DNA of 64,000 nucleotides from Eledone cirrhosa (Eukaryota): positions 22,196,001 to 22,260,000 of the forward strand of contig OZ024740.1 in assembly GCA_964016885.1 (NCBI GenBank), read 5' to 3'. Position numbers and translations under genes: made by a program. Position 1 is the stretch's first letter; every line of letters begins with the position of its first letter. Under the pieces are notes generated by a model. The model was not told where the DNA came from. It worked only from the letters and a program-made list of their open reading frames with translations, and did not search any database. This document shows, in pieces, positions 1 through 36,523 of this stretch.

Positions 1-1092
1 AAGTGTAAGCTGTCCCTAAAAGGCCGGGCGGAGGTGGCGAACATTTACATAGCGTCCGTCACTTACTACCGCCTGACTGTCGTGCCTTGCCCTAAGGAAA
101 CACTCACCACCATGGAACGCATGCTCTTCCAATTTCTTTGGAAGAAGCGCCCTCCTATGGTGAGAAGATCCATCTGCTGCCAACAACCTTCGAAAGGAGG
201 GCTGGGGATGCGGTGGTTGATGATGCGTAGGCACGCATTAAGGCTACGGCACCTACAGGTATTCCTCACTGGTCAACCGGTGTGGGCTCCGTTCGTGAAA
301 CGAGCCTTTCCGAGACTCCTCTCGCTCACCGAGCTGCAGTCCTGGGTCAAGCAAAGATCCGGAAAACTGGGAGACTGGCACACTGAGTGTGCTCAGGCGC
401 TCAGGGCTCTCTGGCAAGCGGGCCAGGCCATCGGTGGAGAATCCACCTCATCATTCTATAGAGGGCTGGTGGCTAGCAGGGGCGATGACACCCTTGGAGA
501 GTCGCTGGACATGGAAGAGGACGAACTGGCCAGCCTGTTCGGTAGGACTTTCGGCCCGGGACCAATGGACAACTTCCAGAAGTCACTAGCCTGGCAGTGC
601 TACCGGGGGTCTCTACCCGTTCGAGAGAGGCTCTACAGACACGGGCGCCCGGGAAGGGATCCCTCGAAAAAGATTTTCCCTAGATGCGTGCGTCACGAAG
701 AAACCGTTGCGCACGCATTGGTGCAATGTCCGGGCGTGGCTGATCTGTGGGCCTACGCCGAACGACTGCTGTCGCGGGTAGCGCCGATTCAATTGACCGC
801 CGAGTCCGTGATGACAATCAAACCGCCTCCCCTCTTCACAAAGGAAGCAAAGGCGGTTTTTCTGTGCGTAATAGCCATTTTGAAAGAGGTTGTTTGGTGG
901 ACACGATTGAAAGGTCTGAGGTCAGGCAACTTCCTCTCTGGCCATAGTCTGGTCTACTTCTTCCGATATCACTTCGGAAGAAGGATAAGAATGGAGAGAG
1001 AGGTGCTTGGCCACGGGCAGTTTTATGAAAGGTGGGTGATAGTGGCGAGAATGGCTCGTGTAAATGGGCCTTCTCTGTATACCATCCTGTAG
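1..1092 (+). CDS. ORF2 C-terminal part of copy A (post-RT region plus CCHC-type zinc motif, first Cys replaced by Phe)
   Basis: Open frame from base 1 to TAG 1092; KGGLGM motif and FPRCVRHEETVAHALVQC align with ORF2 of copies B and D. Confidence 0.88.
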   Translation, partial: KCKLSLKGRAEVANIYIASVTYYRLTVVPCPKETLTTMERMLFQFLWKKRPPMVRRSICCQQPSKGGLGMRWLMMRRHALRLRHLQVFLTGQPVWAPFVKRAFPRLLSLTELQSWVKQRSGKLGDWHTECAQALRALWQAGQAIGGESTSSFYRGLVASRGDDTLGESLDMEEDELASLFGRTFGPGPMDNFQKSLAWQCYRGSLPVRERLYRHGRPGRDPSKKIFPRCVRHEETVAHALVQCPGVADLWAYAERLLSRVAPIQLTAESVMTIKPPPLFTKEAKAVFLCVIAILKEVVWWTRLKGLRSGNFLSGHSLVYFFRYHFGRRIRMEREVLGHGQFYERWVIVARMARVNGPSLYTIL

Positions 1093-1306
1093 GTAAAGAA
1101 GTGAAGGAGAGGGGAGCACCTTCTCCATGTGCTCCCCGGGCAAAGGATTGCACACTTTTTCGGGGGTGTGTGCAACCCCCATCACGTCCCCTCTCTTTTG
1201 AGGTTGTTTTCGATTATTTTCATTTTATACCCTTTTTACTCGATTGTATGTAAACTCCCCCTTTGTATTTGTCCCTTCTTTTTATGCCTTTATGGTAAAT
1301 AAAGAA
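1..1306 (+). mobile_element. L1/Tx1-clade non-LTR retrotransposon, copy A (3' part; the rest is outside the window)
   Basis: ORF2 C-terminus homologous to copies B-D; 3' UTR with stem-loops and AATAAA at 1298-1303, directly followed by (ATCT)n. Confidence 0.93.
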
Positions 1307-1363
<57 letters not shown>

Positions 1364-1390
1364 CCTATCTATCTATCTATCTATCTCTCT
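1307..1390 (+). repeat. (ATCT)n microsatellite between copies A and B
   Basis: About 20 ATCT units read directly. Confidence 0.98.
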
Positions 1391-1609
1391 ACGATGGACA
1401 CATGTGCTGAGCTCGCTCGGTAAGTTTTTGTTTAAATTCATACGTAAATTGTAAACTGTAAACTTTCATTTTTGTATCATTTTGTAGAGGGACTGCCAGG
1501 TCAAATTTTGATCTGGTCGGTCTCTCAAAATATTCTGCGCCTTTGGGAGAAATAGTATTGTGAACATTTTATCTTTCGAAAAACTTCGAAAAACCCTATT
1601 TTGAGAAAA

Positions 1610-1786
1610 ATGGCTGAAGCATCTTCACCATCAATCAAAGAAGGAAAGGGGAAGTCATACTCACAGCTTCCCCCTGCCACTGTCACAGCAGCAGATGCCA
1701 AAGGCAGAGGTCAGAGAGAGGAAGAATTGTCTTCACCTGTTGACCGACCACTAGATGTAGCCACAACTACACAAGAATTTGAAAAC

Positions 1787-1817
<31 letters not shown>

Positions 1818-3429
1818 GCAACGATAAAGACAACACAAACGTCACAAGTATCCACACACGAAACGAGAAAAACAACAACAACAACAAAGATGAAAACAAC
1901 TCAAACGACGAGAAACAAAACAATACTAATATCCAAAACGAAAACAAAATATCTTTTGCACAAACGGCTAAATTATCAGTCGCTTATGTGCTGGAAGATA
2001 TTTCAAAAGCAAAAGAAATGCTGGAAAAAGCCAAGAAATATGTGTCTTTTGGCGAAAACGGATCGTTTTCTATACATTCACCTCCGGAGCTAAAAAGACA
2101 GACGGAATTACGAACTGTCGTATTCCGAACAATTTTAAATAAAACAAAGAAACCAGCGCAACCATCTCAAGCGGAAACTCAGTTAGTCTTGAAAGACGCG
2201 ATGAGAGACATCACTTTCATACAAAAGGATAAACTCTATGGGAGTTTATCCATATTGATGAAAGACGAATTGGCGGCAAAAAAATACTCTGTGTCGCCAA
2301 TTCGGTCCACACACTACACCTTCTTCCCCACCTACATGGGTAAAAAAACCCAGAGGATATGGATAACCACCATCACCCCAAACATAAACTACTGGTGGTT
2401 ACTAACCGGTTTCCTCAATTTAGACGAGGACAACCTCATCTCAATAGGGAAGGCATCCGGCGACGCGTTCAGTGGAACGAGCCTCGAAGTTCTGACCCAA
2501 ATAAGGCCAGAACGCATCGCCCAAATCCCTGAGCGCGTCATGCTGGATGACCGTACCCACCTCAACATTATTGTGGAGGGTAGGCGTCCCTCCTGTTACC
2601 TCTGTGGCAATAGAGGTCACCTGAGGGCTGCCTGTCCCCAGCTCACACAGAAAAAAACACTGCTACCAACACCAACACCACCCCAACTACAACAACAAAA
2701 ACAACCACAACAACAACAAAAACCAACAACCCCACCACCACCACCACAACAACAACAACAACAAACACGTGAAAAAATAACACAGAATACTGTCCCACCC
2801 AAAACAAATACAAAAACACGCACACCGCAAACACTACCAGAAAACATACCCCTCCCACCCAACAAGGAAGACGAACCTCTTTCGTCGCAAGACGAAAAAG
2901 ATCCCTTCCAACAAGTAAAAAGAAAGAAGAGGAGACGCACCACAGACACACATGTTAACTTTAATCCCCCCAAGAGAACACAAACTACACACAAACCACC
3001 CCTCCCTGTCACACAACACTAACTGCTACACAAAAAAAGACATTACAATACACATACATGAACACAGACAACAAAGAATTACGGAAAACAATTTCAGCAA
3101 ACCCTTCGGTCCAAACTGAAGGGCCAAACTTTATAACTGCTGTGGGACTACCTCATTTGAAAATGATAAAAGTCCCAATGCACTTGTACAAAACACTGAA
3201 AATAAATTTCACGGAGGACGTGGGCCCCCCCTGCGTCAAACCAATCAACCGCGTCCTCCTAAAAAATTTCACCCCCCCACCCCACCCAGACACCCACTCA
3301 ACGACAAACACCCCAACCCCACAACACACCGATGCCCCTTCACTTCCACAAACCACAACCCCACCCAACAACCCATCCCCAACCAGCATGGAAATTGAGC
3401 GGCCCGTTTCCCGGGACGCAGAGAGGTAA
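1610..3429 (+). pseudogene. ORF1 of copy B (Asn-rich N-terminus, CCHC zinc knuckle, Pro/Gln/Thr-rich tail); one frameshift near 3000-3020
   Basis: MAEASSP start shared with copy D; CYLCGNRGHLRAAC knuckle; frame 1601..3022 continues in frame 3058..3429, whose product matches the C-terminus of copy D ORF1. Confidence 0.85.
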
Positions 3430-3453
3430 GTGCCTTTTCTCTTTACCACCAAC

Positions 3454-6400
3454 ATGGCTGTGCTAAGAGTAGGGTGTCTAAATGCGCGTGGCCTGGGCTC
3501 GTCTTGGAAGCAAGCAATGCTTCTAAATGACCTCAGGTCACAATCTATAAATGTGATGGTTATCTGCGAGGCCCGGATCAGCAGCATCCGACAGCTAGCC
3601 CCCACCTTTGACGACTTTGAGATGCACGCATTTCTCTGTCAGCCCGGAGGTGGGGGTGGGGTTGTCGTTCTGCTGCAAAAACATATGGGCCTTGCAACAC
3701 AGATAGTTCACTTGGACCCAGGGGGTCGACTGGTGGTGCTGGACCTTGGCAGTGGTGAAGGTGGAGCCCTTAGGCTGATAGCCGCATATGCCCCTTTTGG
3801 GACAGAGCGGCCCGACTTTTTCCAGCGTCTGGAGTCTTTTCTAGGGACGTCCCGTTCCCTGCTTTTAGTGGGGGATTGGAATGGTATCCTGGATGCACGT
3901 TGGGACTATGCAGGGGCATGTCCCGATAGAGAGGGGTGCAACAGCCTCAAGGGGTTACTCGGCCGATTTGACCTGGCCGATAGATTTCGACTAGATTTTC
4001 CGACGGTGCCAACCTGGTCTTGGTCAAATCGCAGCGGATCATCTAGATCGTACCTAGATAGATTTTTAGTTAGAAATAAGGACAGGGACTTTTTAAGTTG
4101 TCCAGAAATGCTCATGGTTGGCTATTCAGACCACAAGTTGGTGACCTGCATGGTCAACCTTGATAGAACGCATAGACAGGGCCCCGGTTACTGGAAGCTC
4201 AACTTGTCCTTGCCGGCAAGTAGAGCCTACAGGAATCGGATTAGTACGTTAGTTAAGGAACGGTTGACTGGAGCGATCGTCAACAGCAGGTGGTGGGTAT
4301 CTCTAAAGAGAGAGATTAGAGTAGTCTCGATTGAATTTAGTAAGGTTCTAGCTGCGGATAGGAATAGGAAGGAAAGGGAGCTAATAGATAGAGTAGAAGA
4401 GGCAATTAGAAGCGGCGACGTGGCCAGAGTGCTAGCATCGAGAACGGCTTTGAGCCAGTTTTTCGACGCGAAGCACGAAGGCTGCGTTGTCCGAAGTAAA
4501 ATACGTGCTCTAGGGAACGAGGGGGCCAAAGCTGTTAGCTGGGCCCGCGTGACAGAGGCCAACAGTGGAACTAAATCCACCATCCGGTCTTTGCGAGACC
4601 TGGATGGACGGGCGATTCTTGAGCCTAAGCAGATGTGTGAGGCCTTTCAAAGGCACTTTGCCCGACTGTTCGGGAGGGGCGGGGAGCCGGTTGGAAACGT
4701 GGACTTCGGTCCATACCTCGACGGCCTGCCGCGCCTCTCGGACAGGGAGGCGAAGTCTTGCGAGGAGCCGATTTCGGCCGCTGAGATAGAAGACGTGCTG
4801 GGCCAATGCGGCAAACGCAAATCCCCGGGTCTCGATGGTCTTCCTTACGAATTATATCTAGCTATGCCGGACTTGTTCCCCGATCTCCTCGAGGCGGTCT
4901 ACTGCAACTGGCGACAGAACGGGAGAATTCCCTGTACTGTGACCAAGGGCGTAGTCACGCTAGTGAGGAAGGACGAGAACAAGGGGGACGAAATAAGTAA
5001 CTTCAGGCCCATAACTCTGCTAAATACAGAGTTACAGATTTTGGCCAAGGTGCTAGCAAAGAGGTTGGCGCTTGTCGTGGGCAACCTGGTGGGAGATGCG
5101 CGGACATGCGCTATCCCGTCCAGGTCCATCCATGACAACCTCCACCTCATGCGATACATCATAGAGAGGGTTGGGAACGAACCCGGCTTTGGTGGGGCTC
5201 TGATCAACTTGGATCAATCTAAGGCGTTCGATAGGGTCGACCATGGTTACCTGGATGCGGTGCTAGCGGCGGAAGGCTTCGGACCCGTTTTCAGGGGCTG
5301 GATCACTGCTATGCACAGCAGCCGCATCTGCTCTAGGGTCAAGGTGAACGGCTACCTCTCGGAGCCGTTCAAAATCGCGCGGTCCATCCGACAAGGGTGC
5401 CCTCTCTCCTCCCTTCTGTATGTGTTGACTCTCGAGCCACTACTGCGGAAGTTGGAGTTGTTGCAGGGCATCCCTATGGAACCGGGATTGCGGAAAGCGG
5501 TGTCAGCCTACGCCGATGATGTGACAGTAATGGTGTCGACGGCCTCCGAAATCGAGGTGGTCGGCACCTTACTGGAGGAGTACGAAAAGTTCACAGGGGC
5601 TAAGCTGAACCGGGACAAGTCGATCGGTTTGCAACTCGGCACGTGGAGGGGCAGACCGATGCCCTCCGATGGCGTCGTCGGACGCTGGACGGAGGGCCCG
5701 GTGAAGTTGCTCGGGGTCTGGTTCGGACCGGACCTCCAGGTGGAGAAAAACTGGGCGGAGGTTACGAACAGGGTGTTTGCACTGACCCAGAAGTGGGCCA
5801 GTTGCAAACTATCCCTGAAAGGTCGGGCGGAGGTGGCGAACACTTATATAGCGTCCGTCATCTACTACCGCCTGACCGTAGTGCCCTGCCCAAGGGAAAC
5901 CCTCACCAAGATGGAGCGCGCGCTCTTCCAATTCCTTTGGAAGGGGCGGGCTCCTATGGTGAGGAGATCCATCTGCTGTCAACACCCTTCGAAAGGAGGG
6001 CTGGGGATGCCGTGGCTAATGATGCGTAAACACGCATTAAGGCTACGGCACCTCTACGTATTCCTCACCGGACAACCGGTGTGGGCCTCGTTTGTGAGAC
6101 GAACCTTTCCCAGACTCGTCTCACTCACCGAGCTGCAATCCTGGGTCAAGCAAAGACCGAGAAAACTGGGCGCCTGGCACACTGAGTGTGCCCAGGCGCT
6201 CACCGCCCTCTGGCAGGCGGATCCGGTTATCAGTGGAGACTCCACCGCAACATTCTATAAAGGGCTGGTACGCAGCAGGTGCGACGACGCCCTCGGAGAA
6301 GCCCAAGACATGGAGGAGGACGAACTGGCCGGCCTGTTCGGTAGGACATTCAGCCCGGGACCTATGGACAACTTCCAGAAGTCCCTGGCCTGGCAGTGCT

Positions 6401-6891
6401 ACCGAGGGGCTTTACCCGTTCGAGAAAGGCTCTACAGACACGGGCGCCCGGGTAGGGACCCCGCCAAAAAGATCTGTCCCAGATGCGTGTGCGACGAGGA
6501 AACCGTTGCACACGCATTGGTACACTGCTCGGGCGTAGCCGATCTGTGGGGCTATGTCGAACAACTGCTGTCAAGGGTGGGACCGATCCGGTTGACCACC
6601 GAGTCTATTGTAATGATCAAGCCGCCTCCCCCCTTCAAAGATGAAGCAGAGGCGGTGTTTCTGTGCGTAATAGCCATGGCGAAAGAGGTTGTATGGTGGA
6701 CGCGTCTGAAAGGACTGAGGTCAGGCACCTTTCTCTCTGGCCAACAACTGGTCCGTTTCTTCCGATATCATTTCGGAAGAAGGATCAGGATGGAGAGAGA
6801 GGTGCTGCACCCCAGTCGTTTTTATGAAAGGTGGGTGAAAGTGGCGAGAATGGCCCGTGTGAATGGGCCTTCTCTTTACATAAGCCTGTAG
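3454..6891 (+). CDS. ORF2 of copy B: AP endonuclease, reverse transcriptase and C-terminal CCHC (1145 aa, intact)
   Basis: APE motifs LNARGL, ICEAR, LVGDWN, YLDRFL, SDHKLV; RT motifs FRPITLLN, LDQSKAFDRV, RQGCPLS, YADD; CPRCx8Hx4C. Confidence 0.96.
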   Translation: MAVLRVGCLNARGLGSSWKQAMLLNDLRSQSINVMVICEARISSIRQLAPTFDDFEMHAFLCQPGGGGGVVVLLQKHMGLATQIVHLDPGGRLVVLDLGSGEGGALRLIAAYAPFGTERPDFFQRLESFLGTSRSLLLVGDWNGILDARWDYAGACPDREGCNSLKGLLGRFDLADRFRLDFPTVPTWSWSNRSGSSRSYLDRFLVRNKDRDFLSCPEMLMVGYSDHKLVTCMVNLDRTHRQGPGYWKLNLSLPASRAYRNRISTLVKERLTGAIVNSRWWVSLKREIRVVSIEFSKVLAADRNRKERELIDRVEEAIRSGDVARVLASRTALSQFFDAKHEGCVVRSKIRALGNEGAKAVSWARVTEANSGTKSTIRSLRDLDGRAILEPKQMCEAFQRHFARLFGRGGEPVGNVDFGPYLDGLPRLSDREAKSCEEPISAAEIEDVLGQCGKRKSPGLDGLPYELYLAMPDLFPDLLEAVYCNWRQNGRIPCTVTKGVVTLVRKDENKGDEISNFRPITLLNTELQILAKVLAKRLALVVGNLVGDARTCAIPSRSIHDNLHLMRYIIERVGNEPGFGGALINLDQSKAFDRVDHGYLDAVLAAEGFGPVFRGWITAMHSSRICSRVKVNGYLSEPFKIARSIRQGCPLSSLLYVLTLEPLLRKLELLQGIPMEPGLRKAVSAYADDVTVMVSTASEIEVVGTLLEEYEKFTGAKLNRDKSIGLQLGTWRGRPMPSDGVVGRWTEGPVKLLGVWFGPDLQVEKNWAEVTNRVFALTQKWASCKLSLKGRAEVANTYIASVIYYRLTVVPCPRETLTKMERALFQFLWKGRAPMVRRSICCQHPSKGGLGMPWLMMRKHALRLRHLYVFLTGQPVWASFVRRTFPRLVSLTELQSWVKQRPRKLGAWHTECAQALTALWQADPVISGDSTATFYKGLVRSRCDDALGEAQDMEEDELAGLFGRTFSPGPMDNFQKSLAWQCYRGALPVRERLYRHGRPGRDPAKKICPRCVCDEETVAHALVHCSGVADLWGYVEQLLSRVGPIRLTTESIVMIKPPPPFKDEAEAVFLCVIAMAKEVVWWTRLKGLRSGTFLSGQQLVRFFRYHFGRRIRMEREVLHPSRFYERWVKVARMARVNGPSLYISL

Positions 6892-7154
6892 GTGGAAAAG
6901 AGGAAGGAACGAGGGAGCACCCCCTCTCTGTGCTCCTGAGGAAAAGGGTTGCACACTTTTTTCGGGGGTGTGTGCGACCCCCCAAGGCGCCTCCTCTCTA
7001 TTGAGGATTTTGTTAAAAATTTTATTTTTTGTTATATCTTATTTTATTTTTATATTTTGTTATTGCCTCCTCCTTATTGAGGACGCCTTTTTGTGTAAAC
7101 TCCCCCCTTTGTACTTGTCCCACTTTTGATGCCCTAGTGGCAAATAAAAGAAAC

Positions 7155-7156
<2 letters not shown>

Positions 7157-7199
<43 letters not shown>
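7157..7199 (+). repeat. (ATCT)n microsatellite between copies B and C
   Basis: About 10-11 ATCT units. Confidence 0.98.
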
Positions 7200-10100
7200 A
7201 GACGTGTGTAACTTCGCGGAGAAGTTTCCGTTAATTTATGTAAGAAAAAAACGTGAGTTTTTAGTTAATTTTTATATCATTGTGTAACTTGAACCTTCAG
7301 GTGGTGGGTCAACTCATTTTCGCCCCTACAGGGGCGGAATATCCATTTGAAAATTTTTTCTCCATCGAATCTTGGAAAAAATATTGTAAAATTTTGATTA
7401 CGTTATGAACGCTGCGTCCAACGATAATGGTGGTGGAGAGGCAGTAAAACTACAAAGCTCGCAGTCAACAACGTCTTCTTCACTAGATACTATAGAGATG
7501 GAAAGACGAAATGAAAATGTAAAAACGAATTCATATTCAAACAACACAAATGACACCAAACAATTCAATGACAACAAAAATAACAGCAACACCAATAATG
7601 ATGATAAAAGCAACAATGATAACAACAACAAAGAAAAAAATAAAGACAACACCAATAACACCAGCATCAAAGACAACAACAACACCAAGGAAAATACGGA
7701 TAATACCAACATCGGTGACAACAAGAATAACAACAACAATAACAACAATAATGACAACATCACCAATACGGATTCCACAAAGAAACCAAAAATCTCCTTT
7801 GCAGAGAAAGTTTTAAAAAAAGGAAGAATTGATATATCTCGACATAACAAATGCTGAACAACTTTTAAAGGACGCTAGGAGATATGTCAGTTTCGAAAAA
7901 AATGGTGCTTTCAGCATCAATTCTCCTGTAGAAATTCGCAAGGAAACTGCTCTCAAAACGATAGTTTTTAGGACAGTTTCCAATTTTACCCGAAAACCAG
8001 TCCAATTGTCACAGAAAGAAATTGAACTGGTTTTCAAAAATTCAATGAATGATATTGCATTCATTCAAAGAAGAAAACTTTTTGGGAGTATTTCGGTACT
8101 CATGAAGGATCAATTGACGACCCAAAATTACTCTGTGTCGCCAATTGTATCCAACCTGTACACCTTTTTCCTTACATACATGGGAAAAAGGACACAAAAG
8201 ATCAGAATCACGAGTGTCACACCAAAGGTGAACATATGGTGGATACTGTGCGGCTTCATCAATTTTGATGAAGACAGAATACTGTCAGTAGGCAAGTCCC
8301 CCAGAGATGTATTCAATGGGACTAGCATTGAAGTTCTGGTGCAAATGAGCCCAGAGCGAATAGCTATGATCCCACAGCGTGTACTCATGGACGGACTCAC
8401 CTACATAAACTTTTCGGTTGAGGGTAGGCGGCCTTCATGTTACCATTGCTTTAGCAGGGGTCACCTGAGGGCTTCCTGTCCTAAATTAATGAACCAAAAA
8501 AAGGCTCTTCTGCCGACACCCATCAAAACAACACAACAACCAACACCACCACCACAACAACAACACCAACACACAAAAATAACCACAACAAACACAGTCC
8601 CACCCAACCCCACTCCACCTAAAACCACTGCAAAATCACATACAGACACAACAGCTCCCCAAGACATACCCCTCCCCAATCACACAGACGATACAACAGA
8701 TGAGGCTATCTCGCCATCACCCAGTGAAGACGAGGGAGAACCCCATCGCTCGAAAAGAAAGAAAAGACATAACAAAAGCAAAAAACCAGCAAACACTACC
8801 ACAAACATACAACCACCAACACAAACAACAAAAACATCACAAACCAAACTCCCACCTCCTGAAAACAAAATACCTACAACAAAACGAAAGCCCACACAAG
8901 AACTACAGACAAAAACAAACACAACACAAGAAAATTACACTTACACTTACATAAACACTGAAAACAAAACACTAATGGAGACCATCACGAACGACCCTTC
9001 GGTGAAAACCGAAGGGAAAACTTTCACCCACTCTATTAAAAATAACAAAAAACTGAACCTAAAACTGATTAGGGGGGGTGGGGTTGCTGTTTTGCTGCGG
9101 AAACACCTGGGCCTCGTAACACAGACGGTACATCTGGACCCGGAGGGTCGACTGGTGGTCCTATACGTTGACGGTAGTGAAGGTGGAGCCTTCAGGCTGG
9201 TGGCCGCATATGCCCCATCCGGGACACCGCGGCCAGATTTCTTCAAACGTCTAGAGACTTTTCTGGGAACGTCCCGCTCCTTGCTTTTAGTGGGGGACTG
9301 GAATGGAATCCTAGATGCACGTTGGGACTATGTGGGAGCATGTCCCGATAAAGGGGGGCGTAACAGCCTCAAACAGTTAATCGACCGATTTGACCTGGCC
9401 GATAGATATCGACTAGATTTTCCGACTGCGCCACTGTGGACGTGGAGTAATCGTAGCGGAACATCTAGATCGTACCTAGATAGGGTTCTAGTTAGAAATA
9501 AGGATAGGGACATGTTAAGCTGTCCACAAATGTTCATGGTTGCCTATTCAGATCACAAACTAGTGACCTGCATGGCCAACCTTGATAGAACCCATAGACA
9601 AGGACCCGGCTACTGGAAGCTGAACTTGTCGTTACCGACAAGCAAAGACTACAGTAGACGGATTAGCACTTTAGTTAAACAGCACTTGACAGGGGCCATT
9701 GTCAACAACAGATGGTGGTACTCTCTCAAGAGGGCAGTTAGATTAGACTCGATAGTTTTTAGTAAAGAATTAGCGTTAGATAGAAATAGAACCGAGAAGG
9801 AACTGGTAGATAAAGTAGAAGAGGGAATTAGAAGTGGCAACGTAGCCAGCGTGCTAGCAACGAGAACAGCCTTGGACCAGTTCTTCGACGCAAAGCACGA
9901 GGGCTGCGTTGTCAGAAGCAAAATACGTGCTCTGGGAAACGAGAGAGCAAAAGCTGTTAGCTGGGCCCGAGTGACGGAGGCAAAAAGTGGCAACAAGTCC
10001 ACGATTCGGTCTTTGAAGGACCAAAACGGACGCGTGATACGTGAGCCGAAGCAGATGTGTGCGGCTTTTCAGCGGCACTTTGCTCGGCTGTTGGGGGGGG

Positions 10101-12536
10101 GGGGGCGCCGGGAGAGGCTATGGATTTCGGTCTATACCTCGACGGCCTACCGCGACTCTCGAACAGCGAGGCAAGGTTCTGCGAAAAGCCGATTTCAGCC
10201 ACTGAGATAGGGGACGCGCTGAGCCAATGCGGCAAACGCAAATCTCCAGGTCTCGACGGTCTACCCTACGAATTTTACGTAGCAATGCCGGACTTATTCT
10301 CCGGTCTCCTGGAAGCGGTCTACTGCAACTGGCAACAGAACTGGAGAATTCCCAGTTCTGTAACCGGTGGCGTGGTCACACTAATCAGGAAGGACGAGAA
10401 TAAGGGGGATGACATAGGCAACTTCCGGCCCATAACTCTGCTAAACACAGAGTTATAGATTTTGGCCAAGTTGTTGGCAAAGAGGTTGGCGCTTGTCGTC
10501 GAGAACCTGGTGGGAGAAGCGCAGACATGCGCAATCCCGACCAGGTCCATACACGACAACCTCCACCTCATGCGATACATCATAGAGAGGGTAGGGTGTA
10601 AATCCGGCATCGGTGGGGCCCTGATCAACTTGGATCAGTCTAAGGCTTTCGATAGGGTTGACCATCGTTACCTGGATGCGGTGCTCGAGGCGGCAGGCTT
10701 CGGACCCGTGTTCAGGGGCTGGATTGCTGCAATGCACAACTGCAACATCTGCTCAAGGGTCAAGGTGAAGGGCTACCTCTCGGAGCCGTTCCATATTACG
10801 CGATCCATTCGACAGGGATGCCCTCTCTCCTCCCTTCTGTACGTACTGACTCTCGAGCCACTACTGCGGAAGCTGGAGCTATTGCAGGGCATCCCTCTGG
10901 AACCGGGACTGCGGAAAGCAGCGTCGGCCTACGCTGACGACGTGACAGTAATGGTGTCGAGCGCCTCGCAAATCGAGGAAGTCGGCACCTTACTGAAGGA
11001 ATACGAAAGTCTCACAGGAGCGAAGCTGAACCGGGACAAGTCCTCGGATCGTGGAGAGGCAAGCCGATGCCTTCCGATGGCGTCGTCGGACGCTGGACGG
11101 AAGGACCGGTAAAGCTGCTCGGGGTCTGGTTTGGTCCGGACCTCCAGGTGGAGAAGAACTGGAAGGAAGTGACGGCCAAGGTCTTTGCACTCACCCAGAA
11201 GTGGGCCGAGTGCAAACTATCCTTGATAGGTCGAGCGGAGGTGGCGAACACTTTTATAGCGTCCGCCATCTATTACCGCTTGACTGTCGTGCCTTGTCCA
11301 GCCAAAACGCTCGCCAAAATGGAGCGCGCGCTCTTCCGATTCCTTTGGAAGAGGCGGGCTCCTTTGGTGAGAAGATCCATCTGCTGCCAACACCCTTCTA
11401 ACGGAGGGCTGGGGCTGCCGTGGTTGACGATGCGCAAACACGCGCTCAGGCTGCGGCATCTCTACGTATTCCTCACCGGACAACCGGTGTGGGCCCCGTT
11501 CGTGAGGCGAGCCTTCCCATGACTCGTCTCGCTGACCGAGCTGCAGTCCTGGGTCAAGCAAAGACCGAGGAAAATGGGCGACTGGCACATCGAATGTGCT
11601 CAGGCGCTCACAGCCCTCTGGCAGGCGGACCCGGTGATCAGTGGAGACTCCACTTCGTCATTCTATAGAGGGTTGGTCCGCAGCAAGTGCGACGACGCGC
11701 TCGGTGAAACTCTAGGCGTAGAGGAAGATGAACTGGCCAGTCTGTTCGGTAGGACCTTCCGCCCGGGACCGATGGACAACTTCCAAAAGTCCCTGGCCTG
11801 GCAGTGCTACCGAGGAGCTCTACCAGTTCGAGACAAGCTCTACAGACATGGGCGCCCGGGAAGGGACCCTGCAAAAAAGATCTGTCCGAGGTGCGTGCGA
11901 GACGAAGAAACCGTCACGCACGCATTCATACACTGCCCGGGCGTCACTGACCTGTGGGGCTATGTAGAACGACTATTGTCGCGGGTGGGACCAATCCAGT
12001 TGACCACCGAGTCCATTGTCATGATCAAACCGCCACCCTCCTTCAAAAACGAAGGAGAGGCGGTTTTCCTTTGTGTGATAGCTATGGCAAAAGAGGTTGT
12101 ATGGTGGACAAGGTTGAAAGGGCTGCGGTCAGACACCTTTCTCTCCGGCCAACAACTGATTCTTTTTTTCAAATACCACTTTGGAAGAAGAATCAGGATG
12201 GAGAGAGAGGTGCTGTACCCCAGCAAGTTTTATGAAAGGTGGGTGAAAGTGGCGAGAATGGCCCGAGTGAATGGGCCTTCTCTCTATATCAGCCTGTAGG
12301 TTGAGGAAAAGGAGGAGGAGAGGAAAGGAGTACAAACTCTTTGTACTCCTGGAGATGAGGGTTGCACATTTTTTTTCGGGGGTATGTGTTACCCATATAA
12401 ACTGTCTCCCTCTATTGGGGAAAATCGACTAACTTTTTAAATTCCATTTGTGATAACATTTTACACGTTTTTATTGTATGTAAACTTCCCCTTTGTATTT
12501 GTCCCCTTCTTTTGTGCCCCTGTGGCTAATAAAGAA
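7200..12536 (+). mobile_element. L1/Tx1-clade retrotransposon copy C (degenerate, distinct 5' UTR, internal deletion)
   Basis: Homologous ORF1 and ORF2 remnants; AATAAA at 12528-12533; ATCT arrays on both sides. Confidence 0.93.
7405..12299 (+). pseudogene. Disrupted ORF1-ORF2 of copy C
   Basis: Frameshift near 7820; in-frame ORF1/ORF2 fusion by deletion near 9071; frameshift in a G-run near 10100; TAG at 10456 (CAG in B and D); deletion of about 13 nt near 11043; TGA at 11520. Confidence 0.9.
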
Positions 12537-12541
12537 ATCTC

Positions 12542-12580
<39 letters not shown>
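12537..12580 (+). repeat. (ATCT)n microsatellite between copies C and D
   Basis: About 10 ATCT units. Confidence 0.98.
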
Positions 12581-12797
12581 GGGATGGACACACGCGTATA
12601 CCTTGCTGAGTAAGTTCTGTTTAAATTTCTATAGAAATTCTTGTCTGTTAACTTTAATTTTTGTACCATTTTGTAGAGGGACTGCCAGGTCAAACTTTGA
12701 TCTGGTCAGTCTCTCAAAATATTCTACGCCTTTAGGCGAAATAGTTAAACAAAAAAAAAAAGTTTTTTTCTTGTTGAAAAGTCAATATTTTTTTTAA

Positions 12798-14575
12798 ATG
12801 GCCGAAGCTTCTTCACCAAAATTCGAAGGAGGAAAGGGGAAGATAAACTTACAGCTTCCCCCTGCCACTGTCACAGTAGCAGAGGTCAAGAAGAAAGGTC
12901 AGCCAGAGGAAGAATTCTCTCCACCGACAACTTGACGTTGCCATGGCAACAACCCAAAGAACCAGCAACAGCAACAACAATGCGACGGACGAAAACAACA
13001 CCAATAACAATAACAACAACAACAAGACCAATAACGGTGACAACAACAACAATGATAACAATAACACCACCAACGACAACAACAACACAAACAAACAAAA
13101 TTTCTCCTTCGCCGAGACGACAAGGAAAACCCTCGACTATCTGCCAGTAGATATAACCAAAGCGAAGAAGCTACTGGCAGATGCGAAAAGATATATAGTG
13201 TACGGAGAAAATGGTTCATTCACAATCCATTCCCCCCCGGAACTAAAAAGCCAGAGACTCCTAAACACGGTCATGTTTAGGACAATCTCGAACAAAAGTA
13301 AAAAACCAGCTCAACCATCACAGAGTGAGATAGAGCTGGTTTTAAAAGACGTCATGAAGGACATCACCTTCATTCAGAAGGATAGACTCTACGGGAGTCT
13401 ATCCATTCTCATGAAGGACAGGGACACAGCAGTGAAACTGTCCATCAAACCAATCACATCCACCGCATACACCTTCTACCCTACGTACATGGGTAGAAGA
13501 ACACAAAAAATAAAAATCCACACCATCCTACCGATTATGGACATATGGTGGGTTTTGACAGGTTTCCTGGACCTGGAGGATGACATGCTGGTGTCCATGG
13601 GAAAGGCATCGGATGACGCGTTCAGTGGAACGAGCCTCGAACTTGTAGTTCAAATGAGGCCCGAAAGGATCGCCCAGATCCCTGAACGCGTCATACTGGA
13701 TGATCTAACCTTCATCAACATTACCGTTGAGGGTAGACGGCCCTCGTGTTACCTCTGCGGAACCAGAGGTCACCTGAGGGCTGTCTGTCCCCAACTTAAT
13801 AAGAAAACCCCAATCCTGCCTACACCACCAACAACTGCACAACCAACACAATCACCACAACTACCACTACAAAAACAACCACCACAGCTCAAACCAAAAC
13901 AAAACAATGTCCAACCCATCCCCTCCACTCAAAAAACAAAAACAATTTCCAAAACACCCGCACCGCAAACACAACCCGAAAATATACCCCTCCCCTCCAA
14001 CGCGGAAGATGACCCTAGTTCGTCGTCAGACGAGGAGGAGCACTTCCACACAATCAAAAGAAAAAAAAAGAAAACACACCTCAGACACACAAATGAAAAC
14101 AACCCCTCCCCAAAACATAACACTGACACCAACACAAAAGAGCTCACAACAACAGCAAACAAAAAACACCACCCAAAAACAAAAACATGCATACACATAC
14201 ATAAACACAAGAAACAAAAAACTGTTAAACATTGTGTACAACAACAATCTAATAAAAACACAAGGGCTTAACTTCACCCAGGCAGGGGATTTCCCCCACC
14301 TCAAAATGATTAAGGCCCCACAGGACACCTATAAAACTTTAAAAAACAATTTTAAAGAGGACGTGGCCCCCCCCCCCCCCTGCGTCGGGCCCATTAACCG
14401 CGTCCTCCTAAAAAACTACCCCACCCTCTCCCCAAACACCCACACAACTCCAAGCTCCCCAACCACACAAAACACTGATGCCCCTACACTTCCACAAACC
14501 ACCACCCCACCCAACAACCCATCCCCCACCCTAATGGAAATTGTGCAGCCCGATACCCGGGACGCAGAGAGGTAA
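12798..14575 (+). pseudogene. ORF1 of copy D with two frameshifts (near 12921 and at an A-run near 14061-14069)
   Basis: ATG 12798 gives MAEASSPKFEGGKGK; continues in frames 12943 and 13907; CYLCGTRGHLRAVC knuckle; ends RDAER-stop as in copy B. Confidence 0.85.
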
Positions 14576-14599
14576 GTGCCTTTTCTCTTCACCACCAAC

Positions 14600-17500
14600 A
14601 TGGCTATGCTAAGAGTAGGCTGTTTAAATGCGCGTGGCCTGGGCTCAACTTGGAAGCAAGCAATGCTTCTAAATGACCTCAGGTCACAACGTATAGATGT
14701 GATGGTTATTTGCGAGGCTCGGATCAGCAACGTGCGACAGCTGGCCCCCACCTTTGATGACTTTGAGATGCACGCATCTCTCTGTCAGCCCGGAGGTGGG
14801 GGTGGAGTTGTCGTTCTGCTGCAAAAACATCTGGGTCTCGCAACACAGATGGTACATTTGGACCCGGAGGGTCGACTAGTGGTTCTGGATCTTGGCAGTG
14901 GTAAAGGCGGAGCGTTTAGGTTGGTAGCCGCCTACGACCCTTTCGGGTCAATGCGGCCGGACTTCTTCCATCGTCTGGAGACTTTTCTAGGGACGTCCCG
15001 CTCCTTGCTATTAGTGGGGGACTGGAATGGTATCCTAGATGCACGCTGGGGCTACGTAGGGGCCTGTCCCGATAGAGAGGGGTGTAATGGCCTCAAAGGG
15101 TTAATCGGTCGATTTGACCTGGCCGATAGATATCGACTAGATTTTCCGACTGCGCCAACCTGGACTTGGGCAAATCGTAGCGGATCATCTAGGTCGTACC
15201 TAGATAGGTTCTTAGTTAGAATTAATAATAAGGACTTTTTAAGTTGTCCAAAAATGCGCATGGTTGGCTATTCAGACCACAAGTTAGTGACCTGCATGAT
15301 CAACCTTGACAGAACTCATAGACAGGGACCCGGTTACTGGAAGCTCAACTTGTCCTTACCGGCAAGTAAGGCTTACAGGGACCGGATTAGCACCTTAGTT
15401 AGGGAGCGGTTGACGGGCGCCATCGTCAACAGCAGGTGGTGGGGATCTCTCAAAAGAGAGATTAGAGTAGTCTCTATAGAATTTAGTAAGGAGTTAGCCT
15501 CCAATAGAAACAGGAAGGAAAGGGAGTTGGTAGATAGTGTAGAAGAGGCAATTAGAAGCGGCGACGTGGCCAGAGTGCTAGCGTCGAGAACGGCCCTGGG
15601 CCAGTTCTTCGACGCGAAACACGAAAGCTGCATCGTCCGAAGCAAAATACGTGCTCTGGGAAACGAGGGGACCAAAGCTGTTAGCTGGGCCCGCGTGACA
15701 GAAGCCAAAAGAGGGAGCAGATCCACTATCCGGTCTTTGCGAGACCAGGATGGACGGGTGATCCTTGAACCTAAGCAGATGTGCGAGGCTTTTCAAAAGC
15801 ACTTTGCCGGATTGTTCGGAAGGGGCGGGGGGCCGGTTGGGGACGTGGACTTCGGTCCATACCTCGACGGCCTGCCGTGTCTCTCGGACAGGGAGGCGAA
15901 GTCCTGCGAGGAGCCGATTTCAGCCGCTGAGATAGAGGACGTGCTGAGCCAATGCGGCAAACGCAAATCCCCGGGTCTCGATGGTCTTCCATACGAACTA
16001 TATCTAGCTATGCCGGACTTGTTCCCCGATCTCCCCGAGGCGGTCTACTGCAACTGGCAACAGAACGGGAGAATTCCCTGTGCTATGACCAAGGGCGTAG
16101 TCACGCTAGTGAGGAAGGACGAGAACAAGGGGGACGATATAAATAATTTCAGGCCCATAACTCTGCTAAATACAGAGTTACAGATTTTGGCCAAGGTGCT
16201 AGCAAAGAGGTTGGCGCTTGTCGTGGGCAACCTGGTGGGAGATGCGCAGACATGTGCTATCCCGTCCAGGTCCATCCACGATAACCTCCACCTCATGCGA
16301 TACATCATAGTGAGGGTTGGGAACGAACCCGGCTTTGGTGGGGCCCTGATCAACTTGGATCAATCTAAGGCATTCGATAGGGTCGACCATGGTTACCTGG
16401 ATGCGGTGCTAGCGGCGGCAGGCTTCGGACCCGTTTTCAGGGGCTGGATCAATGCCATGCACAGCAGCCGCATCTGCTCTAGGGTCAAGGTGAACGGCTA
16501 CCTCTCGGAGCCGTTCGAAATCGCGCGGTCCATCCGACAGGGGTGCCCTCTCTCCTCCCTTCTGTATGTAATGACTCTAGAGCCACTGCTGCGGAAGTTG
16601 GAGTTGTTGCAGGGCATCCCGTTGGAACCGGGATTGCGGAAAGCGGTGTCGGCCTACGCCGATGACGTAACAGTAATGGTGTCGACGGCCTCGGAAATCG
16701 GGGCGATCGGCACCTTACTGGAGGAGTACGAAAGGTTTACAGGGGCTAAGCTGAACCGGGACAAGTCGATCGGTCTGCAACTCGGCACGTGGAGGGGCAG
16801 ATCGATGCCCTCCGATGGCGTCGTCGGGCGCTGGACGGAGGGCCCGGTGAAGTTGCTCGGGGTCTGGTTCGGACCAGACCTCCAGGTGGAGAAGAACTGG
16901 GGTGAGCTGACGAACAGGGCGTTTGCACTGACCCAGAAGTGGGCCGAGTGCAGACTGTCCCTGAAAGGTCGGGAGGAGGTGGCGAACACTTATATAGCGT
17001 CCGTCATCTACTACCGCCTGACCGTCGTGCCTTGCCCAAGGGAAACGCTCGCCAAAATGGAGCGCGCACTCTTCCAATTCCTTTGGAAGAAGCGGGCTCC
17101 TATGGTGAGGAGATCCATCTGCTGTCAACACCCTTCGAAAGGAGGGCTGGGGATGCCGTGGCTAATGATACGTAAACACGCATTAAGGCTACGGCACCTT
17201 CAGGTATTCCTCTCCAGTCAACCGGTGTGGGCCCCGTTTGTGAGGCGAGCCTTTCCCAGACTCGTCTCACTCACCGAGCTGCAATCCTGGGTGAAGCAAA
17301 GACCGAGAAAACTGGGCGCCTGGCACACCGAGTGTGCCCAGGCGCTCACGGCTCTCTGGCAGGCGGACCCGGCTGTCAGTGGAGAATCCACCTCGTCATT
17401 CTATAGAGGGCTGGTGGTTAGCAGGTGCGACGACGCCCTCGGAGAAGCCCTAGGCATGGAGGAAGACGAACTGGCCAACCTGTTCGGTAGGACATTCAGC

Positions 17501-18037
17501 CTGGGACCCATGGATAACTTCCAGAGGTCCCTGGCCTGGCAATGCTACAGAAGGGCTCTGCCCGTTAGAGAAAGGCTCTACAGACACGGGCGCCCGGGTA
17601 GGGACCCATCGAAAAAGATCTGTCCCAGATGCGTGTGCGACGAGGAAACCGTTGCACACGCATTGGTACACTGCTCGGGCATTGCCGATCTGTGGGGCTA
17701 TGTCGAACAACTGCTGTCAAGGGTGGGACCGATCCGGTTGACCACCGAGTCTATTGTAACGATCAAGCCGCCTCCCCTCTTCAAAAACGAAGGAGAGGCG
17801 GTGTTTCAGTGCGTAATAGCCATGGCGAAAGAGGTTGTATGGTGGACGCGTCTGAAAGGACTGAGGTCAGACACCTTTCTCTCTGGCCAACAACTGGTCC
17901 GTTTCTTCCGATATCATTTCGGAAGAAGGATCAGGATGGAGAGAGAGGTGCTGCACCCCAGCCGTTTCTATGAAAGATGGGTGAAAGTGGCGAGAATGGC
18001 CCGTGTGAATGGGTCTTCACTCTACATCAGACTATAG
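14600..18037 (+). CDS. ORF2 of copy D: APE, RT and CCHC (1145 aa, intact)
   Basis: Same catalytic motifs as copy B, colinear and the same length. Confidence 0.96.
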   Translation: MAMLRVGCLNARGLGSTWKQAMLLNDLRSQRIDVMVICEARISNVRQLAPTFDDFEMHASLCQPGGGGGVVVLLQKHLGLATQMVHLDPEGRLVVLDLGSGKGGAFRLVAAYDPFGSMRPDFFHRLETFLGTSRSLLLVGDWNGILDARWGYVGACPDREGCNGLKGLIGRFDLADRYRLDFPTAPTWTWANRSGSSRSYLDRFLVRINNKDFLSCPKMRMVGYSDHKLVTCMINLDRTHRQGPGYWKLNLSLPASKAYRDRISTLVRERLTGAIVNSRWWGSLKREIRVVSIEFSKELASNRNRKERELVDSVEEAIRSGDVARVLASRTALGQFFDAKHESCIVRSKIRALGNEGTKAVSWARVTEAKRGSRSTIRSLRDQDGRVILEPKQMCEAFQKHFAGLFGRGGGPVGDVDFGPYLDGLPCLSDREAKSCEEPISAAEIEDVLSQCGKRKSPGLDGLPYELYLAMPDLFPDLPEAVYCNWQQNGRIPCAMTKGVVTLVRKDENKGDDINNFRPITLLNTELQILAKVLAKRLALVVGNLVGDAQTCAIPSRSIHDNLHLMRYIIVRVGNEPGFGGALINLDQSKAFDRVDHGYLDAVLAAAGFGPVFRGWINAMHSSRICSRVKVNGYLSEPFEIARSIRQGCPLSSLLYVMTLEPLLRKLELLQGIPLEPGLRKAVSAYADDVTVMVSTASEIGAIGTLLEEYERFTGAKLNRDKSIGLQLGTWRGRSMPSDGVVGRWTEGPVKLLGVWFGPDLQVEKNWGELTNRAFALTQKWAECRLSLKGREEVANTYIASVIYYRLTVVPCPRETLAKMERALFQFLWKKRAPMVRRSICCQHPSKGGLGMPWLMIRKHALRLRHLQVFLSSQPVWAPFVRRAFPRLVSLTELQSWVKQRPRKLGAWHTECAQALTALWQADPAVSGESTSSFYRGLVVSRCDDALGEALGMEEDELANLFGRTFSLGPMDNFQRSLAWQCYRRALPVRERLYRHGRPGRDPSKKICPRCVCDEETVAHALVHCSGIADLWGYVEQLLSRVGPIRLTTESIVTIKPPPLFKNEGEAVFQCVIAMAKEVVWWTRLKGLRSDTFLSGQQLVRFFRYHFGRRIRMEREVLHPSRFYERWVKVARMARVNGSSLYIRL

Positions 18038-18300
18038 GTGAGGAAGATGAAAGACCAAGGGAGCACCCCTTCTCTGTGCTCCTGAGGGGAAAGGGTTGCA
18101 CACTTTTCTCGGGGGTGTGTGCGACCCCCAAGGCGCCTCCTCTCTATTGAGGACTTTGTTATAAATTTTATTTTTGTTATATTTTATTTTATTTTTATAT
18201 ATTGTTATTGCCTCCTCCTTATTGAGGACGCCTTGTTTTGTAAACTCCCCCCATTGTACTTGTCCCACTTTTGATGCCCTGGTGGCAAATAAAAGAAACA

Positions 18301-18370
<70 letters not shown>
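18301..18370 (+). repeat. (ATCT)n microsatellite ending the array
   Basis: About 17 units. Confidence 0.98.
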
Positions 18371-18371
<1 letters not shown>

Positions 18372-18677: not shown

Positions 18678-19019
18678 ATAAGAGAGTATTGAAGTTTGCT
18701 TGAAGCATTGTGGAATAATAAGGTATATTTTCTTTAGGTCGTTTTGGAAGCCTCGACAATGCAGATGGGTAATTCTCCGGGTAACAAGATCCGGTGGTGG
18801 AGAGAGAGATGTAAGTGAATGTAGGTTCAGATGTATAGCGTGTAGAAAAACGTAGGAAAGAGCGTAAAGGATAAAACTAATAACACGAGATAGAGTTACC
18901 TTGGGAGAGATTTAATTGTCCCTATATATTTCGGATTCACATCCATCATTGGGTGGGGGTTGTCTGCCGGAAAGGTGCGAAACGTGTCCTCCGCTGTTCG
19001 TTGTTTTGAATATCACTTA

Positions 19020-35581: not shown

Positions 35582-35961
35582 TTTCTTTATTTGCCACAAG
35601 GGCGCACAAGAAAAGGGGACAATAGACATATGCCGGGTATTTTACATAGTCGTGTAAAAGTTTTAACATGCAAATATAACAATCGAAATCCTCAAAAGGG
35701 GGCGGGGGAGGCATTACAAATGGGTTGTTTAATACCCCGTAGATAGAACTCAACTACAGGAGCATGTTGTGCAAGTGCTCCTTTCTTCCTTTTGCTCTCT
35801 TCAACCTACAGGTTTATATACAGTAAGGCCCAATCACTCGGACCATTCTCGCCACATTCACTCACCTTTCAGTAAATTTACTGGGGTGCAGTACCTCTCT
35901 CTCTACTCTGATTCTCCTTCTAAAGTGGTACCTAAAAAAGGGAATGAGTTGTTGTCCGGAG
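35582..35961 (-). mobile_element. 5'-truncated solo copy of the same Tx1-like family (ORF2 tip plus 3' UTR)
   Basis: Minus strand encodes SGQQLIPFFRYHFRRRIRVEREVLHPSKF..VARMVRV and ends GTGGCAAATAAAGAAAT like copies A-D. Confidence 0.88.
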
Positions 35962-36523
35962 TGAGATTGTATAGACAGACGGTTACTAATGTCTAGTATA
36001 TTTAAGTGGTTGGCTTTAAATCTTTAGGTTTATTCTATTGTATACTGTATGCAATGTATGGTCTTGCAACTCCCAGCATTTCTAGAGCATCTGAAAACCT
36101 GGCGGAGCTCAGCCCTCTCCATGTCTGAATACAGCAGATTTCTTCCAGAGGAGAGTGAGAGAATGGAGAAAAGATATAGGGGAAGAATTGACCCAGTACT
36201 TGACTGGTACTTTATCAACTTGGACTGTATGAAAGGTAAAAATTGACCAAGTATATTGTATAATCTGGTCATACGATTATTTCTGATACGTCATTGTACT
36301 CCATTTGAGACAGGATAGCTTCCTTATAGTTTATAATTATGTATCCCCCCCCCCCCAATTACACGCAAGTTGTATCATTCATGCCTCTCCAGTAACATTC
36401 CCTATCATATACATCTAATCTGTTCAATGCACTTGACATATTTGTTTGAGCCTTTATGGAGATACAGGAGATTGAGTCATGTCAGCTTTATTGATCTCAG
36501 GCTGTGGCTTGTACTCAGAACAC

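What the first reader, a model, noticed from the sequence alone, without database searches (positions are those of the whole stretch)
1..18370. Array of diverged Tx1-like retrotransposons nested in one (ATCT)n microsatellite: candidate new target-specific lineage
Seen: four copies lie head-to-tail in one orientation. Each 3' end (..AATAAA(A)GAAA) abuts an ATCT array with no poly(A), and each visible 5' end (B, C, D) starts directly after ATCT. The copies differ in ORF1, 5' UTR and 3' UTR, so this is not a recent tandem duplication. Established: Tx1-group L1-clade elements include sequence-specific families that target microsatellites (Kibi: (TC)n; Koshi: (TTC)n) or multicopy RNA genes (Keno, Dewa, Mutsu). 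Inference: these are independent insertions of several subfamilies into a single (ATCT/GATA)n tract, so the APE would be specific for a tetranucleotide repeat. I do not know of a named family with this target. ORF2 is intact in copies B and D, so the enzyme can be tested.
Basis: partly seen in the sequence, partly recalled or inferred. Interest (0 to 1): 0.82.

Follow-up and report, generated by a model that had tools for sequence, protein, structure and literature searches.

The report
Octopus LINE stacking in ATCT microsatellites
Four diverged copies of a Tx1-type jumping gene, likely from an octopus, lie head to tail with a run of the simple repeat ATCT at every joint, and broken-off copies elsewhere also start right after ATCT, so this family likely seeks out ATCT repeats: a new target word for a kind of repeat-seeking element already known from fish and crocodiles.

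Summary
Copies A–D (80–93% identical, with third-position excess) lie head to tail. Each 3' end reads AATAAA(A)GAAA, three bases, then ATCT (CTCT in C), with no poly(A). ORF2 (APE-RT-CCHC, 1145 aa) is open in B and D; ORF1 is broken in B, C and D. An RT tree places them with U2- and U1-flanked Tx1 elements. The nearest protein carrying a species name is from Argonauta (62%).

ATCT is more than a tail. Public reads show 5'-truncated copies joined directly to ATCT runs (two joints, one loose end). A fifth, truncated copy at 35.6–36.0 kb sits in a degenerate GTCT/ATCT tract, with the same 3' phase and no array. No genome was held, so no genome-wide fraction exists.

The inference that the endonuclease reads ATCT is untested. 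A sister lineage builds similar arrays with endonucleases 90–96% alike but unrelated joint sequences, which points to a read-through RNA tail or self-targeting.

Tetranucleotide-targeting Tx1 (TTCC, TTTC) is published. ATCT was not found in ten literature searches; Repbase and Dfam could not be checked. Verdict: new member of a known kind.

The parts
1..1307 (+). Copy A: 3' part of ORF2 (1-1092) and 3' UTR; cut by the window edge
   Evidence: (zf-RVT)
1307..1391 (+). (ATCT)n array between A and B, about 21 units
1392..7153 (+). Copy B, full length
1610..3429 (+). ORF1 of B with CCHC knuckle; one frameshift near 3020-3060
3454..6891 (+). ORF2 of B, 1145 aa, APE-RT-CCHC, catalytic residues present
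7156..7199 (+). (ATCT)n array between B and C, 11 units
7200..12537 (+). Copy C, full length but dead (ORF1 broken; deletions at about 9003, 9062, 10092 and 11042; in-frame stop)
12537..12580 (+). (ATCT)n array between C and D, 11 units
12581..18298 (+). Copy D, full length
12798..14575 (+). ORF1 of D, frameshifted; differs from most laid records by indels near 12922 and 14061
   Evidence: (table 4)
14600..18037 (+). ORF2 of D, 1145 aa, open
18056..18128 (+). Two predicted 3' UTR hairpins; the first is kept in all five copies (also 1110-1180, 6911-6982, 12324-12396, and 35720-35785 minus strand)
18301..18371 (+). (ATCT)n array after D, about 18 units, followed by non-element sequence
35582..35964 (-). 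Copy E: 5'-truncated solo copy of another subfamily (end of ORF2 and 3' UTR); degenerate GTCT/ATCT tract upstream, a single ATCT in the same phase downstream, no array

Best explanation
This is a head-to-tail stack of four subfamilies of a Tx1-clade LINE, likely of an octopod, that likely inserts by target-primed reverse transcription into (ATCT)n microsatellites. Shown: the anatomy, the L1/Tx1-type APE-RT-CCHC protein with intact catalytic residues in B and D, the shared 3' phase (GAAA, three bases, then ATCT in four of five 3' ends, CTCT in C), and truncated copies starting directly after ATCT. Inferred steps: (1) the APE nicks the AGAT strand; (2) the RNA, which has AATAAA only 4-5 nt from its end and leaves no poly(A), likely runs a few units into the flanking ATCT and pairs with the freed AGAT 3' end to prime reverse transcription; (3) the cDNA joins the upstream ATCT through 2-5 nt of microhomology; (4) ATCT is left on both sides, so the target is renewed and later subfamilies land at the same place, giving one-orientation arrays whose spacers then drift in length by slippage. 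Specificity is most likely shared between a nicking preference of the APE and RNA-DNA pairing; the share of each is untested.
For: Junctions in the window. Third-position excess rules out recent local duplication. Reads laid on D: joint 18317->16993 with ATCTATC between, in raw reads of X18 (153 reads, one start place) and a contig of X1; joint 18316->16958 with an ATCT run between (113 reads, one start place); an X1 loose end at 17455 beginning with a degenerate ATCT run (2 contigs); and other full-length 5' ends preceded by an ATCTCT variant (73 of 129 X18 reads at 12577, 4 start places; 2 X1 contigs). The truncation points at 16958 and 16993 share 2-5 and 3 nt with an ATCT run. Copy E has a degenerate GTCT/ATCT tract at its 5' side and the same 3' phase; TATCT occurs at 0.12% of positions in the non-element part of the window. 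Clade: 84-row group (SH-aLRT 97) with U2-flanked L005/L008 and U1-flanked L110, excluding plant L1 hits. Precedent: microsatellite-targeting Tx1 (PMC4494074; PMC3812793) and RNA 3' end to target pairing in SART1 and R1Bm (PMC7265360).
Against: No genome was held, so there is no count of flanks. One search shows only 15 of 1,457 joints and 24 of 7,939 loose ends, and drops human-like reads, so the ATCT junctions have no denominator. The two truncated-copy joints could also arise by microhomology deletion inside an existing array. The 16993 joint sits behind another copy's 3' end, which fits self-targeting equally well. Copy E is not in a true ATCT array and its 5' junction is uncertain by about 10 nt. 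All four perfect arrays belong to one locus. The sister lineage forms such arrays with no microsatellite (0 of 67 3' ends followed by ATCTATCT).
Confidence: 0.62

Rival explanations
1. Self-targeting with an inherited tail. The enzyme has no ATCT preference. New copies insert at the 3' end of an older copy (after AATAAAGAAA), duplicating the next ~17-25 bases. The RNA carries those bases onward as a read-through tail that also steers founder insertions to similar sequence. ATCT is simply the tail this lineage inherited.
For: Sister lineage in G001 (39-40% ORF2 identity; same 17-row clade, support 100). Eight subfamilies have APE domains 90-96% identical, with the same hairpin loop in seven, yet their joint 12-mers match at 4.36 of 12 against 4.31 shuffled. 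All 4 visible array ends carry 11-18 nt of the array's internal spacer. Of 5 visible array starts, 2 match the spacer closely, 2 partly and 1 weakly. Truncated copies sit exactly behind a 3' end plus spacer. The read joint at 16993 has only about 26 nt of ATCT behind a 3' end.
Against: That lineage is distant (APE 39-41% identical to B and D, different loop), and its contigs were probably binned because they are arrays. Its spacers may be ordinary target duplications spread by unequal exchange. Five diverged subfamilies in the window all keep ATCT, whereas the sister spacers turn over quickly, which suggests something holds ATCT in place. APE swaps do move specificity in TRAS1/SART1, and Tx1L APE is sequence-specific (as cited in PMC1919474).
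Confidence: 0.25
2. ATCT is only an element-encoded microsatellite tail, as in RTE-type LINEs. The tandem comes from template jumps, recombination between tails, or passive accumulation.
For: Every perfect array in the window lies 3' of a copy. Microsatellite 3' UTRs are described for an octopus RTE LINE (PMC9115989). Passive accumulation near repeats is described for Drosophila Waldo (PMC3812793).
Against: Copy E has no tail array but an ATCT-like 5' flank. Truncated 5' ends follow ATCT with microhomology. The four copies differ in decay (C dead; ORF2 open in B and D), which argues against a single template-jump event.
Confidence: 0.1
3. Assembly artefact: diverged copies joined through collapsed ATCT repeats.
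Against: The arrays are 44-85 bp, short enough for reads to bridge. Raw reads from a different sample bridge a 3' end, ATCT and another copy, so such joints exist as DNA.
Confidence: 0.03

Closest known systems
Crocodilian Tx1 families preferring (TTCC)n/(TTTC)n (Tx1-1_Crp, Tx1-5_Crp, Tx1-6_Crp, Tx1-1_Gav, Tx1-2/3/5/8_AMi) and fish Kibi (TC)n and Koshi (TTC)n (PMC4494074, passages and section 16 read; figure 3 and supplements not available)
   Same: Tx1 clade, APE-type LINE, found inside a short tandem repeat, including tetranucleotides.
   Different: Target word ATCT/AGAT is not a pure pyrimidine run; the host is a cephalopod. Kinship to Kibi/Koshi could not be tested because no named sequences were on hand.
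Waldo (ACAY)n and Mino (AC)n, R1 clade; Dong (TAA)n (PMC3812793, passages)
   Same: Non-LTR elements that interrupt microsatellites, Waldo with a four-base unit.
   Different: Other clades (R1 and R4 assignments partly recalled); other repeat words.
Tx1L of Xenopus (in Tx1D), Keno (U2 snRNA), Tx1-Mar/SINEU-3, Tx1-1_ACar (telomere) (PMC4494074; PMC10088271; passages)
   Same: Same clade. Tandem insertions around a duplicated target are described for SINEU-3.
   Different: Targets are a transposon, an RNA gene or telomeric repeats. Rfam finds no RNA gene in the window, and the window's copies do not group with the U2-flanked loci.
Octopus vulgaris L1-Tx1 families (PMC13282606, passages and supplement searched)
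   Same: 80 L1-Tx1 consensus families, 13 recently active, are counted in an octopus; this family may be among such library entries.
   Different: The passages and supplement I saw give no target, no ATCT and no sequences, so identity could not be checked.

Membership tests
Tx1 clade (L1 group) non-LTR retrotransposons | Two ORFs; ORF2 with N-terminal APE, RT and C-terminal CCHC, no RNase H | tested here: met
   Pfam Exo_endo_phos, RVT_1 and zf-RVT, no RNase H hit. Best PDB match is human L1 ORF2p, E 2e-46 against R2 E 3e-20. APE model pLDDT 89; top fold match is the L1 endonuclease, TM 0.79.
Tx1 clade (L1 group) non-LTR retrotransposons | ORF1 with CCHC zinc knuckle | tested here: met
   zf-CCHC in B (E 0.0027) and D (E 0.035), both below Pfam's cut-off; the motif is visible in B, C and D.
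Tx1 clade (L1 group) non-LTR retrotransposons | RT phylogeny within Tx1 rather than L1 proper | tested here: met
   Quick IQ-TREE of 107 rows: 84-row clade (SH-aLRT 97, no bootstrap) with U2-flanked L005/L008 and U1-flanked L110, apart from plant L1 hits. The anchors are identified by their flanks, not by name.
Microsatellite-specific Tx1 (Kibi/Koshi type) | Target repeat in more than 20% of flanks genome-wide (criterion of PMC4494074) | tested here: inconclusive
   4 of 5 copies in the window are in perfect arrays and the fifth in a degenerate one, but four share one locus. Read junctions have no denominator. No genome.
Microsatellite-specific Tx1 (Kibi/Koshi type) | Repeat at the 5' side of truncated copies (target, not tail) | tested here: met
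   Two joints and one loose end, plus copy E; four cases, small and not a random sample.
Kibi/Koshi lineage proper | (TC)n, (TTC)n, (TTCC)n or (TTTC)n target | tested here: not met
   The repeat is ATCT.
Kibi/Koshi lineage proper | Monophyly with Kibi/Koshi RT sequences | not testable with these tools
   No Repbase sequences available.
Sequence-specific APE retrotransposons | Endonuclease cleaves the target sequence selectively | not testable with these tools
   Needs a nicking assay. Catalytic residues N10, E39, Y112, D141, N143, D202 and H227 align with L1; the hairpin loop is the same length as L1's, which says nothing about specificity.
Keno / RNA-gene-targeting Tx1 | Insertion in U2, 5S or tRNA arrays | tested here: not met
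   No Rfam match in the window; does not group with L005/L008.

The most novel reading that the evidence does not exclude
In this cephalopod Tx1 clade the landing site is programmed by RNA, not by the endonuclease. Each transcript carries 12-20 bases of read-through flank that pair with a matching genomic site, so target identity is inherited and rewritten like a guide. The family in the window is a branch whose guide locked onto the abundant ATCT microsatellite, while sister subfamilies with near-identical endonucleases each home to a different short sequence.
Probability: 0.2. Interest if true: 0.78.

Novelty: new member of a known kind. Interest (0 to 1): 0.42.

Why it matters
As it stands, it adds an ATCT/GATA target and a cephalopod host to the list of target-specific Tx1 LINEs. 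It also shows that an abundant octopod LINE is tied to a microsatellite class (33,368 contigs of one run and 82,333 of another organism's run lay on copy D). Such repeats are commonly used as population markers (recalled), so element-linked loci could misbehave. The mechanism of microsatellite targeting by APE elements is described as not well understood (PMC3812793). Two natural open ORF2 copies, plus a sister clade with near-identical endonucleases but unrelated joints, make the question 'enzyme or RNA tail?' directly testable. If the tail decides, it would be a natural, re-programmable LINE targeting rule.

Tried and rejected
No whole genome for the window.

Viral contigs: no relatives. The one match to a 3'-end+ATCT pattern is chance.

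Metagenome contigs: 70 loci, mostly 21-33% identical (a few short segments up to 49%). A repeat scan of these and 7 further loci showed no (ATCT)n array.

Sequencing runs: no RNA holder listed, so nothing can be said about expression. In one search the counts of records running over the ends (195, 721, 11, 70) and the depth table were not used as copy numbers or flank fractions, because pure-repeat records can contribute and the tool warns against it. Of the 10 'before' loose ends shown, 9 read by eye as diverged element sequence and were not counted either way.

Telomere-type terminal addition was considered, since the orientation fits HeT-A-like arrays (PMC10088271). Nothing supports it: no telomeric repeat, and the window edge cuts copy A. 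RNA-gene targets were rejected. The protein atlas gave only generic APE-RT clusters. The ATCT runs in G001 lie outside its element arrays.

Literature: ten searches found no ATCT/GATA-targeting Tx1; (Tx1 + retrotransposon + ATCT) returned 0 papers. Most subscription papers, Repbase Reports, Repbase and Dfam were not searchable. Figure 3 and the supplements of PMC4494074, which list targets family by family, could not be seen and may bear on novelty. Look-ups of earlier findings by place and by sequence were empty.
Full report
OBSERVATION. The window begins inside a LINE and holds four same-strand copies: A 1-1307, B 1392-7153, C 7200-12537 and D 12581-18298. ATCT arrays of 44-85 bp lie at 1307-1391, 7156-7199, 12537-12580 and 18301-18371. 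These are the only ATCT/AGAT runs of three or more units in the window. The 10 other perfect microsatellites of 20 bp or more beyond 18.4 kb hold no piece of the element. No 3' end has poly(A); each reads AATAAA(A)GAAA and then seven bases ending in TCT. The last 1092 nt of ORF2 are 80.2-93.0% identical between copies, with a third-position excess (A vs C 47/42/127; B vs D over the whole ORF2 69/52/154). The copies therefore descend from separate active lineages rather than from local duplication. ORF2 is open over 1145 aa in B and D. ORF1 is frameshifted in B and D, and C carries several deletions and a stop. No copy is whole, but B and D give natural ORF2 proteins.

A FIFTH COPY. A 5'-truncated copy E lies at 35582-35964 on the minus strand, 73-83% identical to the others over its ORF2 part. 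It ends in AATAAAGAAA, then TATATCT, then unique DNA. That is the same phase as the array copies, but there is no array. Its 5' flank is a degenerate GTCT/ATCT tract, with the junction uncertain by about 10 nt. TATCT occurs at 0.12% of positions in the non-element part of the window, so the phase match is unlikely to be chance. It is one case.

WHAT IT IS. ORF2 has APE, RT and C-terminal zinc-finger domains, and ORF1 has a CCHC knuckle scoring below Pfam's cut-off. Human L1 ORF2p is the best solved relative, and the APE and RT catalytic residues align. The APE model (pLDDT 89) matches the L1 endonuclease best. In a quick RT tree of 107 rows, B and D fall in an 84-row clade (SH-aLRT 97) with elements flanked by U2 (L005, L008) and U1 (L110) snRNA genes, apart from plant L1 hits, but not next to the U2 group. 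That supports Tx1 membership; named Repbase references were not available. The nearest protein with a species name is from Argonauta hians (62% over 509 aa, against 35-39% to the sister branch), and cuttlefish proteins fall nearer the sister branch. The window's common SINE resembles the octopus tRNA-SINE as I recall it. The host is likely an octopod. The 3' UTR folds into two hairpins (z -1.8 to -2.5 in A-D, -0.7 in E). The first is kept in all five copies with one compensatory change, which is thin support for an RT-recognition signal.

TARGET OR TAIL. No genome was held, so I laid four public runs on copy D with 16 repeat bases each side. The family is abundant and diverse in all four. Of 15 joints shown (1,457 in all), two join an ATCT run directly to a truncated 5' end. 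One is at element position 16993 (153 raw reads with one start place in X18, and one X1 contig); the other is at 16958 (113 reads, one start place). The truncation points share 3 and 2-5 nt with the repeat, as expected when cDNA joins target DNA. Of 24 loose ends shown (7,939 in all), one at 17455 (2 contigs) begins with a degenerate ATCT run; the other nine 5'-side ones look like diverged element sequence. Other full-length 5' ends are preceded by an ATCTCT variant (73 of 129 reads at 12577). These cases, with E, argue that ATCT is target DNA. Limits: there is no denominator, human-like reads are dropped by the tool, the 16993 joint lies behind another copy's 3' end, and microhomology deletion within an array could mimic both joints.

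THE SISTER LINEAGE. A scan of prokaryote genome contigs returned 41 loci from animal-type contigs in one bin (G001) encoding ORF2 relatives at 39-42% identity. They share a 17-row clade (support 100) with B and D. These contigs are largely head-to-tail arrays of 6.4-6.8 kb units. None of 67 3' ends is followed by ATCTATCT or poly(A). Instead each is followed by a 12-18 nt spacer typical of its array or subfamily. All 4 visible array ends carry 11-18 nt of it; of 5 visible array starts, 2 match closely, 2 partly and 1 weakly. Truncated copies sit exactly behind a 3' end plus spacer. Eight subfamilies have APE domains 90-96% identical, with the same hairpin loop in seven, while their spacers are no more alike than shuffled (4.36 vs 4.31 of 12). 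So in this clade arrays do not need a microsatellite, and joint sequence can change without the enzyme changing. These contigs are a biased sample, and the spacers may be plain target duplications spread by unequal exchange.

MECHANISM. The best reading (0.62) is repeated target-primed insertion into ATCT tracts. The APE nicks the AGAT strand; an RNA end that likely reads through into ATCT pairs with the primer; the 5' end joins by microhomology; and the target is renewed on both sides. RNA-end pairing with the target is reported for SART1 and R1Bm (PMC7265360, passages), and APE-borne specificity for TRAS1, SART1, R1Bm and Tx1L (PMC1919474, passages). The main rival (0.25) is self-targeting at the older copy's 3' end with an inherited ATCT tail and no ATCT-reading enzyme. 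A pure tail (0.10) and an assembly artefact (0.03) fit less well. All steps after the anatomy are inferred.

WHAT IS KNOWN. Tx1 families already target Tx1D, U2 genes, (TC)n, (TTC)n, and in crocodilians (TTCC)n/(TTTC)n, and tandem insertions around a duplicated target are described for SINEU-3 (PMC4494074; outline, passages and section 16 read; figure 3 and supplements not seen). A telomere-specific Tx1 is cited in PMC10088271 (passages). ACAY-targeting Waldo elements are listed in PMC3812793 (passages). Octopus L1-Tx1 families are counted without targets in PMC13282606 (passages and supplement). PMC9115989 has no Tx1 mention (passages), and PMC10294476 mentions the clade only generally (passages). 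Ten searches found no ATCT/GATA-targeting Tx1; Repbase and Dfam were out of reach. Unchecked notes of this scan describe other target-specific Tx1 arrays in other genomes. They show the pattern is common and are not used as support.

VERDICT. A real, likely ATCT-seeking Tx1 family of an octopod: a new target word and host for a known kind of element. Interest 0.42; the RNA-programmed reading has probability 0.2 and would merit 0.78.

Noticed in passing
G001 contigs, loci L071-L109, L113, L118, L126-L143: A genome listed as a bacterial MAG holds at least 16 animal-type contigs made largely of head-to-tail Tx1 arrays (83 ORF2 matches): likely host contamination of a reference genome.
   Followed up: yes
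L096:945 and L096:13733; L104:1019; L089:1636; L094:14747: Sister Tx1 arrays carry array-specific 12-18 nt spacers at internal joints, at array ends and (often imperfectly) before the first copy, though their endonucleases are 90-96% identical; possible RNA-tail-guided or self-targeted insertion.
   Followed up: partly
L071:1640, 8189, 14747: The sister subfamily nearest to the window's by tree path has TATCT directly after its AATAAA; three copies of one junction, may be chance.
   Followed up: no
L005:4675-4885, L008:5815-5977, L110:3036-3199 and 9961-10137: Tx1-type elements flanked by U2 (Keno-like) and U1 snRNA sequences.
   Followed up: partly
L018:4285-4339: A distant relative (43% best segment) is followed by an (AT)27 run near the contig end.
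   Followed up: no
window 18990-19420: Decayed fragment that by eye resembles the RNase H end of another LINE (motif recalled), followed by a 400-bp AAC-rich tract at 19479-19876.
   Followed up: no
window 20971-21160, 30539-30721, 37735-37913, 40683-40857, 45981-46152, 49363-49549 and others: About ten copies of a ~190-bp SINE resembling the octopus tRNA-derived SINE (recalled).
   Followed up: partly
window 42305-45560, 53512-54564, 25992-26354: Homogeneous minisatellites of 26, 18/30 and 31 bp; the first two create long spurious ORFs (41904-45728, 53489-54595).
   Followed up: no
window 12922 and 14061: Copy D's ORF1 differs from most laid records at these places (8-nt and 1-nt indels, table 4), so its breaks look private or are assembly homopolymer errors.
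   Followed up: partly
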